Below are positions 29,001-32,000 of a stretch of DNA of 64,000 bases, piece by piece. The notes under the pieces were generated by a model, which did no database searches, was not told where the DNA came from, and saw nothing but the letters and a program-made list of their open reading frames with translations. Made by a program: the position numbers and the translations under genes. This stretch comes from Longimicrobiaceae bacterium (lineage in GTDB: Bacteria; Gemmatimonadota; Gemmatimonadetes; Longimicrobiales; Longimicrobiaceae): contig JBEVLE010000636.1 of the NCBI GenBank assembly GCA_040509335.1, positions 3,164 through 67,163 on the forward strand. The letters run 5' to 3'. The stretch's first letter is position 1; every line of letters starts with the position of its first letter.

Positions 29001-32000
29001 GGAGGCGCCGGAGGTGCGGGAGGCGGCCGTCGTCGTGCGGGAGGACGTGCCGGGGCGGGCGCGGCTGGTGGCCTACGTCGTCGCCGCGGAGGAGGCGGAG
29101 CCCGCGGCCGGGGAGCTGCGGGCGCGGCTCCTGGCACGGCTGCCGGAGCACATGGTGCCGGGCGCCTTCGTCGTGCTGGAGCGGCTGCCGCTCACGGTCG
29201 CGGGCAAGGTGGACCGGCGGGCGCTCCCCGCGCCGGAGCCGGCCGCGGGCGCGGAGCACGCCGCGCCGCGAACGGCGACCGAGGAGGTGCTGGCGGGGAT
29301 CTGGGCGGAGGTGCTGGGCGTGGAGCGCGTGGGGGTGGAGGCCGGCTTCTTCGAGCTGGGGGGGCACTCGCTGCTGGCCGCGCAGGTGGTCTCGCGGATC
29401 CGGCAGCTGTTCGGCGTGGAGGTGCCGCTGCGGACGCTGTTCGAGGCGCCCACGGTGGCCGCCCTCGCCGGGCGCATCGACGCCCTGCGGAGCGAGGGCG
29501 GCGCGGCCGCCCCGCCCGTCGCGCCGGTCCCGCGCGGGGGGCCGCTGCCGCTGTCGTTCGCGCAGCAGCGGCTGTGGTTCATCCAGCGGCTGGACCCGGC
29601 GAGCGGCGCCTACAACATGCCCTTCGCGCTGCGCCTGCGCGGCGCGCTGGACGCCGCGGCGCTGCGGGCGAGCATCGGCGAGCTGGCCCGGCGGCACGAG
29701 GTGCTGCGCACGGTCTTCGAGGAGCGCGGCGGCGCGCCCGTGCAGGTGGTGCGCCCGCCGGCGGCCGGCGCGCTCCCCGCGCTGGACCTGGGCGGTCTGC
29801 CGGCGGCGCGCCGCGACGCCGAGGCGAAGCGGCTGGCCGGCGCGGAGGCGCTGCGCCCCTTCGATCTGGCGCGCGGGCCGCTGCTGCGGAGCACGCTGCT
29901 CCGGCTGGACGCGGACGACCACGTGCTCCTCTTCACCCTGCACCACGTGGCCGGCGACGGGTGGAGCATGGACGTGCTGGTACGCGAGGTTTCCGCGCTG
30001 TACGGCGCCTTCAGCCGGGGCGGATCGTCGCCGCTGCCGGAGCTGCCGGTGCAGTACGCGGACTTCGCCGTGTGGCAGCGCGGGTGGCTCCGCGGCGCGG
30101 CGCTGGAGGCGCAGGTGGTCTTCTGGAAGGACAAGCTGGCCGGCGCCCCGCCGCTCCTGGAGGTCCCGGTCGACCACCCGCGCAGGGTGGGGCAGAGCGC
30201 GCGGGCGGGGTTCCACGCGTTCACGCTGCCGCCGGACACGGCGCGGGGGCTGCGGGCGCTGTCGCGCCGCGAGGGGGCGACGCTGTTCATGACCGTCCTC
30301 GCCGGCTGGCAGGCGCTGCTGGGCCGCTGGGCCGCGCAGGACGACGTGGTGGTGGGCACCCCCGTCGCGGGGCGCACCCGGCGCGAGCTGGAGGGGCTGA
30401 TCGGCTTCTTCGTCAACATGCTCGTGCTGCGCGCCGACCTGGGCGGCGATCCCACCTGGGGGGGATTGCTGGGGCGGGTGCGGGAAACGGCGCTGGGCGC
30501 GTACTCGCACCAGGACGTCCCCTTCGAGCGGCTGGTGGAGGAGCTGGCCGTGGAGCGCAGCCTGACGCACACGCCGCTGTTCCAGGCGGCGTTCGCGCTG
30601 AGCCACGCGGACCGGGGCGGCGCGCCCGCTCCGCTGGGCTCGCTGGAGCTGGAGCCGGTCCGGGGCGGGGAGGGCGTCGCCAAGTTCGACCTGGACCTGT
30701 CGGTGTCGGACGACGACGCGGCGCTGCACGGCACGCTGACGTACCGCGCGGCGCTCTTCGAGGCGGCGACCGTCGCGCGCATGGCGGGGCACCTGGAAGT
30801 GCTCCTGGAAGCCATGGCGGCCGGCCCCGCGCGGCGCCTTTCCGAGCTTTCGCTGCTGCGCGGCGCCGAGCGTGCCCAGGTGCTGGAGGCCTGGAACGCC
30901 ACCGCCGCCGATTTCCCCCGCGGCCGCTGCGTCCACGAATTGTTCGCCGAGCAGGCGGCGCGCACCCCCGGCGCGGTGGCCGTCGCCGCCGGCGGCGGCG
31001 TGCTGACCTACGCCGAGCTGGAGCGCCGCTCCGGCCGGGTGGCGCTGCGCCTGGCCGGGCTCGGCGTGGGCCCGGAGGCCCGCGTGGGATTGTGCGTGGA
31101 GCGCGGCGCGGAGATGGTCGTCGCCCTGCTCGGCATCCTCCGGGCCGGCGGCGCCTACCTGCCGCTGGATCCCACGCACCCGCCCGAGCGCCTGGCCTAC
31201 ATGCTGGACGACTCGGGCGCGTCCGTGCTGCTCACGCAGTCGAGCCTGGCCGGCCGGTTCCAGGGCTTCGCGGGCGAGATCGTCGCGCTGGACGGGACCC
31301 CCCTCCCCCCGGCCCCCTCCCCCGCAAGGGGGGAGGGGGGGAACGACGAAGCGGTGGACGCGGAGAACGCCGCGTACGTCATCTACACTTCCGGCTCCAC
31401 CGGGCGGCCCAAGGGCGTGGCCGTCCCCCACCGGGCCGTGGTGAACTTCCTGGAGTCCATGCGCGCGGCGCCGGGGCTCGCCGCCGGGGACACGCTGCTG
31501 GCGGTGACGACGCTCGCCTTCGACATCGCCGCCCTGGAGCTGCTGCTGCCGCTGACCACGGGGGCGCGGGTCGCGATCGCGAGCCGGGCGACCGCCTCCG
31601 ACGGGACGCGGCTGGGGGCGGAGATCGCGGCGAGCGGGGCCACGGTCGTGCAGGCCACCCCCGCCACGTGGCGGATGCTGCTGGAGGCCGGGTGGGAGGG
31701 AAGCCCCGGGCTGAAGGTGCTGTGCGGCGGCGAGGCGCTGCCGCGGGAACTGGCGGACCGGCTCGCGGCGCGCTGCGGCGAGCTGTGGAACCTGTACGGG
31801 CCCACCGAAACGACCATCTGGTCCACGATCCGGCGCGTGGAGCCCGGGGAGGGCGCGGTGCCCATCGGGACGCCCATCGCCAACACCCGCGCGTACCTGC
31901 TGGACGGCGGACTGGAGCCGGTGCCGGCGGGGCTGGCCGGCGAGCTGTACCTGGGCGGCGAGGGGGTTGCGCGCGGCTACCTGGGGCGCGCCGGGCTGAC

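What the first reader, a model, noticed from the sequence alone, without database searches (positions are those of the whole stretch)
31291..31348. Perfect 11-bp G:C hairpin with a competing second C-rich arm, translated as part of a Gly-type A domain
CCCCCTCCCCC (31313-31323) and GGGGGAGGGGG (31329-31339) pair perfectly around the loop GCAAG. Immediately upstream, CCCCCCTCCCCCC (31298-31310) could pair with the same G-rich arm instead, giving two mutually exclusive structures. A stem this stable inside an ORF is unusual. It would be a strong obstacle or pause site for ribosomes and polymerases, and it has the look of a REP-like palindromic repeat. The encoded [17 protein letters not shown] is low-complexity peptide unrelated to neighbouring A-domain sequence.
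Basis: seen in the sequence. Interest (0 to 1): 0.75.

Follow-up and report, generated by a model that had tools for sequence, protein, structure and literature searches.

The report
Genomic palindromic repeat translated inside NRPS
The G:C hairpin is a copy of a short repeat that is scattered through the non-coding DNA of Longimicrobiaceae bacteria, and here it has replaced, in frame, a floppy surface loop of a peptide-synthetase domain, a loop that in this lineage repeatedly takes up such repeats.

Summary
The two C-rich arms, the GCAAG loop and the G-rich arm are at the stated coordinates, and the two folds are mutually exclusive and close in energy.

The structure is not an exceptional one for this 77%-GC window; its stability ranks in the top ~2% of 60-nt windows. 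It is one copy of a discrete ~52-nt repeat unit (31296-31347). A second copy, 49/49 nt identical, lies at 60671-60722 at the same position and in the same frame of a distantly related A domain.

The same unit occurs in other Gemmatimonadota assemblies. All 20 metagenome copies are non-coding. There the unit forms the 5' edge of a mosaic repeat that ends in a conserved ~130-nt structured module. In NRPS genes the unit, and two other repeat units (7-bp and 8-bp tandem repeats), are found only in the loop just before core motif A3, always in sense orientation and in one frame.

The closest orthologue has ~95% identical flanking DNA but carries a different repeat in that loop. AlphaFold2 places the encoded peptide in a low-confidence coil.

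Best reading: a tolerated in-frame passenger repeat, comparable to Rickettsia palindromic elements, not a dedicated pause signal. The strict site, orientation and frame specificity is unexplained.

The parts
31296..31347 (+). Copy 1 of the ~52-nt C/G-rich palindromic repeat unit. Consensus: GACCCCCCTCCCCCCG(G/A)CCCCCTCCCCCGCAAGGGGGGAGGGGGAG(A/C)ACGAC. Translated as [17 protein letters not shown].
   Evidence: 52 nt, 98% to consensus. Its edges coincide with those of the non-coding copies. It has G at 31340 where the consensus has A.
31298..31310 (+). Distal C arm, CCCCCCTCCCCCC. It pairs with the G arm in the minimum-energy fold (13 bp).
31313..31323 (+). Proximal C arm, CCCCCTCCCCC. It forms the alternative 11-bp stem around the loop GCAAG (31324-31328).
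31328..31341 (+). G arm, GGGGGGAGGGGGGG, shared by the two mutually exclusive stems.
31298..31323 (-). Four-tract G-quadruplex motif on the template strand: GGGGGAGGGGGCCGGGGGGAGGGGGG. It is the reverse complement of the two C arms.
   Evidence: This and its twin at copy 2 are the only two strict G4 motifs (four tracts of at least 4 G, loops of at most 3 nt) on either strand of the 64-kb window.
31294..31368 (+). The whole replaced pre-A3 loop: 75 nt between ...CTGGAC and GCCGCGTAC....
   Evidence: The window and orthologue L137 are ~92-97% identical on both sides. Between these points they are unrelated: the hairpin unit here, against 63 nt of GTTGCAGG(CTGTCCC)3... in L137.
30940..32499 (+). 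Host adenylation domain (Gly-type) within the ORF 23092-46176. The A2 motif starts at 31150 and the A3 motif ([11 protein letters not shown]) at 31384.
   Evidence: In the AF2 model (pLDDT 90.3) the element residues ~119-136 lie in a coil with pLDDT 56-59.
60671..60722 (+). Copy 2 of the same repeat unit. It sits at the same pre-A3 position and in the same codon phase, in the first A domain of the next NRPS gene.
60739..60779 (+). 8-bp tandem repeat (CGCACTTT x4.8), directly 3' of copy 2 in the same loop. Translated as [13 protein letters not shown].
   Evidence: The same unit is in pre-A3 loops of L014, L048, L061 and L138, and in non-coding DNA in L014.
37651..37688 (+). Heptamer unit GTTGCAGG(CTGTTCC)4 in the pre-A3 loop of another A domain. 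Translated as [12 protein letters not shown].
   Evidence: An identical unit lies in intergenic DNA in L027 and L055.
54306..54343 (+). The same heptamer unit in the pre-A3 loop of a further A domain.
63942..63982 (+). Heptamer unit of the CTGTCCC variant. By register it lies in the pre-A3 loop of the last A domain, whose A3 motif is beyond the window end.

Best explanation
The hairpin is one copy of a short (~52-56 nt) C/G-rich interspersed palindromic repeat unit that belongs to Longimicrobiaceae/Gemmatimonadota genomes.

In non-coding DNA this unit is the 5' edge of a mosaic, BIME-like repeat. The mosaic consists of the hairpin unit, zero to three further short hairpin-like units, and then a conserved ~130-nt module with covarying stems. 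It lies mostly between co-oriented genes.

Pieces of this mosaic, together with two simple-repeat units from the same genomes ((CTGTYCC)4 and (GCACTTTC)n), have repeatedly been incorporated, in sense orientation and in frame, into the hypervariable loop between the strand ending ...LD and core motif A3 of NRPS adenylation domains. There they replace the native ~20-residue loop and are translated into a Pro/Gly/Ser/Ala-rich, probably disordered linker.

Shown: the repeat identity, the contexts, the in-frame replacement, the rapid turnover, and the predicted loop location.

Inferred: the copies in A domains are tolerated passengers ('selfish DNA in a protein-coding gene') rather than a selected regulatory structure. 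Also inferred is that they arrive by repair- or recombination-templated patch replacement, or by transposition followed by selection. The actual mechanism is unknown.
For: 1. A second copy lies at 60671-60722. It is 49/49 nt identical to copy 1, at the same site and in the same frame, while the flanks share only 42-47% amino-acid identity.
2. The same unit, with the same edges, occurs in other Gemmatimonadota assemblies. All 20 metagenome copies and 3 genome copies are outside A domains.
3. In 13 of 13 non-coding copies with enough sequence, the unit heads a composite that ends in a conserved ~130-nt module. That module has 47 predicted pairs, 14 of them with double compensatory changes, and 0 of 500 shuffles reach the observed covariation.
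4. The unit sits in pre-A3 loops, in the same frame, in A domains of L004/L061, L014, L031, L048, L097 and L138.
5. Across ~105 kb of NRPS DNA, every measurable hit of any unit is 16-257 nt upstream of an A3 motif on the sense strand, and none lies elsewhere in the ORFs.
6. The closest orthologue, L137/P0001, has ~92-97% identical DNA on both sides but a heptamer unit in the loop. dN/dS is 0.42 and dS 0.25, so the host gene is under purifying selection.
7. Element-bearing A domains are not monophyletic, which implies at least three acquisitions.
8. In 116 related A domains the A2-A3 interval is tightly ~81 aa and lacks this peptide. Against LgrA the peptide aligns to the native loop with only 3+1 gap positions.
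9. AF2 places residues ~119-136 in a coil of pLDDT 56-59 between two confident strands.
10. Precedent exists for in-frame palindromic repeats (PMC10969869, citing Ogata 2000) and for REPs inside genes, including different REPs at about the same site in Xanthomonas recB (PMC3733652).
Against: - Copy 1 does not lengthen the loop (84 aa against a typical ~81), so this is replacement rather than simple insertion, and no mechanism for that was shown.
- No terminal inverted repeats, target-site duplications or associated transposase were found.
- All roughly 15 occupied loops have the units in one orientation and one frame, although the hairpin, heptamer and octamer units are open in all six frames. 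A purely 'random insertion plus tolerance' model does not predict this.
- The high identity of the core among copies is partly an ascertainment effect of exact-pattern searches.
- The copy number per genome was not measured.
- No non-NRPS protein-coding host was identified, unlike Rickettsia palindromic elements, which sit in many unrelated genes.
Confidence: 0.75

Rival explanations
1. The hairpin, or the G4 on the template strand, is a selected cis-acting signal inside the gene. It would act as a transcriptional or translational pause that helps the megasynthetase fold co-translationally, or that tunes expression.
For: - The stem is stable: -37.9 kcal/mol per 58 nt, in the top ~2% of windows.
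- Two alternative folds lie within ~3.5 kcal/mol of each other.
- The only two strict G4 motifs in the 64 kb are the two copies, on the template strand.
- The position is at a domain-internal loop, always in sense orientation.
Against: - Only 2 of 17 A domains in the window carry it.
- The closest orthologue, with ~95% identical flanks, has a non-palindromic heptamer repeat in its place.
- Many windows in the same ORFs fold at least as stably.
- The unit is mainly a non-coding interspersed repeat.
- The only formal slippery heptamer (C CCC CCG, 31305-31311, read) is 1 nt from the proximal stem, not the usual 5-9 nt.
Confidence: 0.07
2. The unit entered one ancestral A domain once and has since spread only among A domains, by gene conversion or Acore recombination between paralogous modules. 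On this view the non-coding copies are irrelevant to the A-domain copies.
For: - The site, orientation and frame are constant in all A-domain copies.
- NRPS Acore regions are known recombination targets (PMC8097286).
- The DNA encoding A3 immediately downstream is nearly identical among modules and could anchor conversion.
- Copy 2, L097 and L048 form a related group that may have inherited the unit.
Against: - Identity between copy 1 and copy 2 stops exactly at the edges of the unit as defined by the non-coding copies, and the sequence between the unit and A3 differs.
- Hairpin-bearing domains are not monophyletic, and copy 1's nearest paralogues and its orthologue lack the unit.
- At least three other unit types from the same non-coding mosaics occur in the same loops. 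They include multi-unit stretches that reproduce the order of the non-coding composite.
Confidence: 0.12
3. The repeats are maintained in pre-A3 loops because they give otherwise diverged A domains ~50 bp of portable homology. This would promote in-frame recombination (module deletion, duplication or Acore swaps) and so diversify the NRPS.
For: - Copies 1 and 2 are direct repeats in the same codon phase, so a crossover between them would give an in-frame hybrid A domain.
- The loop lies at the N-terminal side of the Acore region that natural recombination exchanges (PMC8097286).
- About half of the loops surveyed carry some unit.
Against: - No recombinant junction at a repeat was observed.
- The differing N-part and C-part nearest neighbours are equally explained by ordinary Acore exchange.
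- Selection for evolvability is a weak force.
- This reading is purely inferential.
Confidence: 0.05
4. The feature is an assembly or sequencing artefact, such as a chimeric join or a homopolymer error at a repeat.
For: - Several contigs end inside the repeat (L004, L031, L061 and many metagenome contigs), so the repeat does disturb assembly.
- The NRPS genes of L138 are fragmented in the gene calls.
Against: - The same in-frame arrangement is seen in at least five independent assemblies from different sources.
- The reading frame is intact over 7694 codons.
- The flanks match the orthologue on both sides of the loop.
Confidence: 0.01

Closest known systems
Rickettsia palindromic elements (RPEs; Ogata et al. 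2000, as summarised in PMC10969869)
   Same: Both are interspersed palindromic repeats found in intergenic DNA and also inserted in frame in protein-coding genes. In both cases the repeat is translated into an extra peptide at a place compatible with the protein fold.
   Different: RPEs are ~100-150 bp, AT-rich, and sit in many unrelated genes at varied sites. This unit is ~52 nt and almost pure G/C, and it is seen only in one loop of one domain family. It replaces the loop rather than adding to it, and in non-coding DNA it is a module of a larger mosaic. No sequence relationship to RPEs was tested.
REP / BIME elements and REPs located inside genes (Di Nocera et al. 2013, PMC3733652)
   Same: Both are short palindromes that are multi-copy and mostly extragenic between co-oriented genes, and that combine with other motifs into mosaics. 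REPs inside genes are documented, including different REPs at about the same site in Xanthomonas recB.
   Different: The consensus has no GTAG or CGTC tag at either end. No RAYT or other transposase association was examined. The layout has three arms (two C arms and one G arm).
Heptameric G-quadruplex-forming dispersed repeats (GGGNATC type; Rehm et al. 2015, PMC4692102)
   Same: Both are period-7 G-rich (C-rich on the other strand) units with a preference for four units, dispersed mainly between aligned ORFs and close to gene ends. The two C arms here are four period-7 C tracts (TRF period 7, 3.7 copies). The accompanying (CTGTCCC)4 units read (GGGACAG)4 on the other strand.
   Different: Here a complementary G arm is attached, so hairpin and G4 compete. 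[quoted passage not shown] G4 formation was not tested.

Membership tests
REP/BIME-type interspersed palindromic repeats | A short imperfect palindrome able to form a stem-loop. | tested here: met
   Stems of 11 and 13 bp, -29 to -38 kcal/mol.
REP/BIME-type interspersed palindromic repeats | Many dispersed copies, predominantly extragenic. | tested here: met
   20 of 20 metagenome copies and 3 genome copies lie outside A domains, with unique flanks. The copy number per genome was not measured.
REP/BIME-type interspersed palindromic repeats | Occurs in mosaic clusters with other conserved motifs. | tested here: met
   The composite is the hairpin unit, 0-3 other units, then a ~130-nt module, in 13 of 13 copies.
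REP/BIME-type interspersed palindromic repeats | A GTAG or CGTC tetranucleotide tag at one end (the two super-families of PMC3733652). | tested here: not met
   The consensus unit contains no GTAG/CTAC or CGTC/GACG. The GACG upstream of the A-domain copies comes from the host codons GAC GGG.
REP/BIME-type interspersed palindromic repeats | An associated RAYT (IS200/IS605-like tyrosine transposase) in the genome. | not tested
RPE-like in-frame palindromic elements | The same repeat family is present both in intergenic DNA and inside intact ORFs, in frame. | tested here: met
RPE-like in-frame palindromic elements | The encoded peptide lies at a structurally permissive surface site. | tested here: met
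   AF2 places it in a coil of pLDDT 56-59 between confident strands. It aligns to the variable loop of LgrA. This rests on prediction only.
RPE-like in-frame palindromic elements | Inserted into many unrelated genes. | tested here: not met
   The only coding hosts seen are NRPS A domains, always at the pre-A3 loop. Sampling outside NRPS genes was limited.
MITE | Terminal inverted repeats and target-site duplications. | tested here: not met
   The ends of the composite (ACCCCCCTCC... and ...GGGGGCACGCCCGAACC) are not inverted copies of each other, and no duplicated flank is seen (by inspection).
Heptameric G4-forming dispersed repeats | Period-7 G-rich or C-rich units with about four units. | tested here: met
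   TRF reports period 7 with 3.7 copies at 31298-31323 and 60673-60698, and CTGTTCC/CTGTCCC x4.3. The strict G4 motif is found only at the two copies.
Heptameric G4-forming dispersed repeats | Actual G-quadruplex formation. | not testable with these tools
   This needs CD or NMR spectroscopy, or polymerase-stop assays.
Programmed ribosomal pause / frameshift structure | A slippery heptamer 5-9 nt upstream of the structure, and conservation of the structure in orthologues. | tested here: not met
   The only formal X XXY YYZ (C CCC CCG, 31305-31311) is 1 nt from the proximal stem. The orthologue L137 lacks the hairpin.
Known RNA families (Rfam 15) | A match at the gathering threshold. | tested here: not met
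   No hit for the element or for the non-coding composites.

The most novel reading that the evidence does not exclude
The pre-A3 loop of Longimicrobiaceae A domains is actively targeted by a site-, orientation- and phase-specific insertion or replacement process that draws on the genome's mosaic repeats. That process might use the associated ~130-nt structured module as a template or guide. The resulting shared ~50-bp patches would then act as portable homology that drives in-frame shuffling of NRPS modules.
Probability: 0.1. Interest if true: 0.85.

Novelty: new variant of a known kind. Interest (0 to 1): 0.55.

Why it matters
- **For repeat biology:** it extends the 'selfish palindromic DNA translated inside proteins' phenomenon, known chiefly from Rickettsia, to a high-GC soil phylum and to megasynthetases. 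About 15 of 29 loops surveyed are occupied by at least three unit types, always in one orientation and frame, and simple tolerance does not explain that specificity.
- **For NRPS work:** it marks the pre-A3 loop as a naturally validated permissive site that accepts from 18 to more than 100 foreign residues. It explains odd low-complexity peptides and contig breaks in Gemmatimonadota biosynthetic clusters. It also raises the testable idea that shared repeats seed module recombination.
- **Side finding:** the work uncovered an abundant, unannotated ~130-nt module with covarying stems in these genomes.

Tried and rejected
- **Shuffle z-score:** uninformative, because any shuffle of C runs and G runs folds well. 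I replaced it with a window-wide sliding MFE.
- **Rfam:** searches of the element and of the composites found no family.
- **Generic hairpin scan of genomes:** It was useful only after filtering for the GCAAG loop and the flanks.
- **Peptide-based protein search:** This was a dead end.
- **Viral contigs:** no copy of the structured module.
- **Stop-codon avoidance as the reason for constant orientation and frame:** rejected, because the hairpin, heptamer and octamer units are open in all six frames.
- **Simple length-adding insertion for copy 1:** rejected. The loop is 84 aa against a typical ~81 and aligns to the native loop.
- **Frameshift signal:** rejected on spacing and on lack of conservation.
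- **Assembly artefact:** rejected because the arrangement recurs in independent assemblies.
- **Terminator role:** there is no T run after the stem.
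Full report
**1. The observation.**
The window is ~77% G+C throughout and consists almost entirely of giant NRPS ORFs. At the stated coordinates the sequence is as described:
- CCCCCCTCCCCCC at 31298-31310
- CCCCCTCCCCC at 31313-31323
- the loop GCAAG at 31324-31328
- GGGGGGAGGGGGGG at 31328-31341

In the frame of the 7694-aa ORF (23092-46176) this reads [19 protein letters not shown]. Both alternative stems are real. The minimum-energy fold uses the distal 13-nt C arm (-34.3 kcal/mol alone, -37.9 with extras). 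The proximal 11-bp stem gives -29.0 (-34.5 with extras).

As a bare structure it is not exceptional for this composition:
- The z-score is -1.05 against dinucleotide shuffles.
- It ranks about 205-276 of 12,789 sliding 60-nt windows (mean -26.65, sd 5.49, minimum -46.4).
- About nine loci in the window have perfect hairpins of at least 11 bp.

One structural property is unique in the window. The reverse complement of the two C arms, GGGGGAGGGGGCCGGGGGGAGGGGGG, is one of only two strict four-tract G-quadruplex motifs on either strand of the 64 kb. The other belongs to the second copy.

**2. It is a repeat unit, present twice in the window.**
The whole three-arm motif recurs at 60665-60723. The two copies are 49/49 nt identical and similar for about 10 more nucleotides on the 3' side. 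The surrounding A-domain DNA is much more diverged, and the flanking protein sequence is only 47% (N side) and 42% (C side) identical. Both copies sit between core motifs A2 and A3 of an adenylation domain, immediately after the strand ending ...LD, and in the same codon phase.

**3. Where else it occurs.**
Of 120 such hairpins with full flanks, 64 (53%) have a third arm next to them: 31 have an upstream C-rich arm and 32 a downstream G-rich arm.

The exact family, with the GCAAG loop and our flanks, was found only in Gemmatimonadota assemblies: MAG270, a Gemmatimonadales chromosome, a Longimicrobiaceae MAG, and L097. A metagenome scan with a 41-nt specific pattern gave 20 further copies from two samples.

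Anchored comparison of 27 copies defines a discrete unit, (G)ACCCCCCTCCCCCCG(G/A)CCCCCTCCCCCGCAAGGGGGGAGGGGGAG(A/C)ACGAC(AC), with unrelated flanks. The edges of the A-domain copies coincide with those of the non-coding copies. The identity of the 41-nt core is partly by construction of the searches. The sharp 5' edge and the ~10 conserved 3' nucleotides are not.

Protein homologues of the copy-1 module are led by Longimicrobiaceae MAG proteins at 81%, 71% and 70% identity. The window therefore comes from that family.

**4. Two kinds of context.**

(a) Non-coding. All 20 metagenome copies and three genome copies (L023, L027, L057) are outside A domains. All-against-all comparison shows unique upstream flanks and ~260-490 nt of shared sequence downstream. 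The hairpin unit is thus the 5' edge of a composite. After it come zero to three other short hairpin-like units, then a conserved ~130-nt module, present in 13 of 13 copies with enough sequence.

That module has these properties:
- It folds into a multi-stem structure with 47 pairs. Of the cells, 98.2% are paired. Fourteen pairs show double compensatory changes, and 0 of 500 shuffles reach the observed covariation. With slid partners the covariation score is 0.018-0.044, against 0.236 for the structure itself.
- It has no Rfam match.
- It is absent from viral contigs.
- It recurs a second time within each of three 8-kb loci, and once just downstream of mutS in L138.

By a GC3 heuristic, the gene downstream of the composite is on the same strand in 8 of 10 cases.

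(b) Coding. In L004/L061, L014, L031, L048, L097 and L138, the hairpin unit or close variants lie in the pre-A3 loop of A domains, in the same frame as in the window. Some loops hold several units in the order seen in the non-coding composite, and they stop just before the module's GCG-TGA-GGG, which would be a stop codon in that frame. In one L048 A domain the loop insert reaches about 100 residues.

**5. The loop is a hotspot for several repeat families.**
In the window, three other A domains carry GTTGCAGG(CTGTYCC)4 in the same loop (37651-37688, 54306-54343, 63942-63982). Copy 2 is followed by (CGCACTTT)x4.8 at 60739-60779. The same units occur in intergenic DNA of related genomes: L027, L055 (about 45 nt upstream of a start codon), and L014.

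I compared all unit types by BLAST with ~105 kb of NRPS DNA. Every measurable hit lies 16-257 nt upstream of an A3 motif on the sense strand. About 15 of 29 loops are occupied, and no unit lies elsewhere in the ORFs. Each unit type is always read in one frame, although the hairpin, heptamer and octamer units are open in all six frames. Stop-codon avoidance therefore does not explain the uniform orientation and frame.

**6. It replaces the loop and turns over quickly.**
- In 116 related A domains the A2-A3 interval is tightly ~81 residues, exactly 81 in 64 of them. On the same measure copy 1 is 84 and copy 2 is 101.
- Against LgrA module 2, the best solved match, the element peptide aligns to the native loop with only 3+1 gap positions.
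- The closest orthologue (P0001/L137) is ~92-97% identical at the DNA level on both sides, up to ...CT(G/C)GAC and from GCCGCGTACGTC.... Between those points the window has 75 nt with the hairpin unit (31294-31368) and L137 has 63 nt with GTTGCAGG(CTGTCCC)3CTCTCCC....
- Over 833 codons dS is 0.25 and dN/dS is 0.42, so the host gene is under purifying selection.
- Hairpin-bearing A domains are not each other's closest relatives. Copy 1's nearest paralogues lack the unit, while copy 2, L097 and L048 form a related group. This implies at least three acquisitions.

**7. Protein context.**
The domain is Gly-type. The specificity residues read off the LgrA alignment are D-I-L-Q-L-G-L-I-W. Matching these to the Stachelhaus Gly code rests on my own knowledge. 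The AF2 model is confident overall (pLDDT 90.3). It places element residues ~119-136 in a coil between strands 113-116 and 144-150. This is the lowest-confidence stretch in the N-terminal part of the model, at pLDDT 56-59 and below 50 at residues 129-135.

**8. Interpretation.**
The best-supported reading is that the hairpin is a tolerated, in-frame copy of a genomic interspersed palindromic repeat that has replaced a permissive loop. Three known phenomena are close to it:
- Rickettsia palindromic elements inserted in frame in protein-coding genes (PMC10969869).
- REPs inside genes, including different REPs at about the same site in Xanthomonas recB (PMC3733652).
- Dispersed heptameric G4-forming repeats, which prefer four units and lie between aligned ORFs (PMC4692102). 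The C arms here and the heptamer units share that period-7, four-unit layout.

A dedicated pausing function is unlikely, given the orthologue comparison and the ordinary stability rank, but it was not tested directly.

What remains unexplained is the strict site, orientation and phase specificity. It suggests one of two things. The first is loop-to-loop conversion anchored on the near-identical A3-coding DNA. The second is a targeted process. Baunach et al. (PMC8097286) show that Acore regions are the main substrate of natural NRPS recombination. The shared ~50-bp patches could therefore act as crossover sites, but no recombinant junction was seen here.

**9. Verdict.**
- The 'unusual obstacle' framing is weak.
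- The finding is a new variant of a known kind, of moderate interest.
- There is an additional side finding: the ~130-nt structured module.

Noticed in passing
L023:299-422 and 5315-5441; L027:3148-3275 and 532-659(-); L057:4807-4935 and 7141-7270; L138:369-496(-); also L117-L136: A conserved ~130-nt module (GCGTGAGGGATTTCGGCCCGAAGGGGCGAGACC...GGGGGCACGCCC) with a multi-stem fold. It has 47 predicted pairs, 14 with double compensatory changes, and 0 of 500 shuffles reach the observed covariation. It is multi-copy (two copies per 8-kb locus in three loci), mostly co-oriented with the downstream gene, has no Rfam match and is absent from viral contigs. It is a candidate new structured RNA or the end of a mobile element in Longimicrobiaceae/Gemmatimonadales.
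   Followed up: partly
window 37651-37688, 54306-54343, 63942-63982: GTTGCAGG(CTGTTCC)4 or (CTGTCCC)4 heptamer units lie in the pre-A3 loops of three other A domains, translated as [15 protein letters not shown]. The period of 7 is not a multiple of 3, and the G+C content is low for this window. The same unit is intergenic in L027:856 and L055:5246, and it occupies the copy-1 loop in orthologue L137.
   Followed up: partly
window 60739-60779: An 8-bp tandem repeat (CGCACTTT x4.8) follows copy 2 directly and is translated as [13 protein letters not shown]. The same unit is in pre-A3 loops of L014, L048, L061 and L138, and in non-coding DNA at L014(-):105.
   Followed up: partly
window ~57480-57570 (the A domain with A3 at 57573): This loop begins with the same 11 nt as the repeat-bearing loops (GACGGGACCCC, read as DGTP) and is Pro-rich ([25 protein letters not shown]). 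It may be a decayed copy or may be coincidence.
   Followed up: no
window A domains with A3 at 15041 and 44077: These two A domains are 93% (N part) and 97% (C part) identical in protein, far closer than any other pair in the window. This points to a recent module duplication or gene conversion between the first and third NRPS genes.
   Followed up: no
L010, L037, L078, L090, L100 (Gemmataceae MAG); L072 and other Rokubacteria loci: Other phyla carry their own abundant three-arm C/G hairpin families. Examples are gaccccaccccctag-CCCCCTCCCCC-GCG-GGGGGAGGGGG in a Gemmataceae MAG, and tandem copies at 110-nt spacing in a Rokubacteria MAG (L072:5065, 5175, 5285). The three-arm, G4-capable layout seems to be a general class.
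   Followed up: partly
L138:5257-12508: The NRPS genes on this contig are split into many short gene calls. This may reflect frameshift errors at homopolymer runs or real decay. One break (12475/12508) is near a repeat-bearing loop.
   Followed up: no
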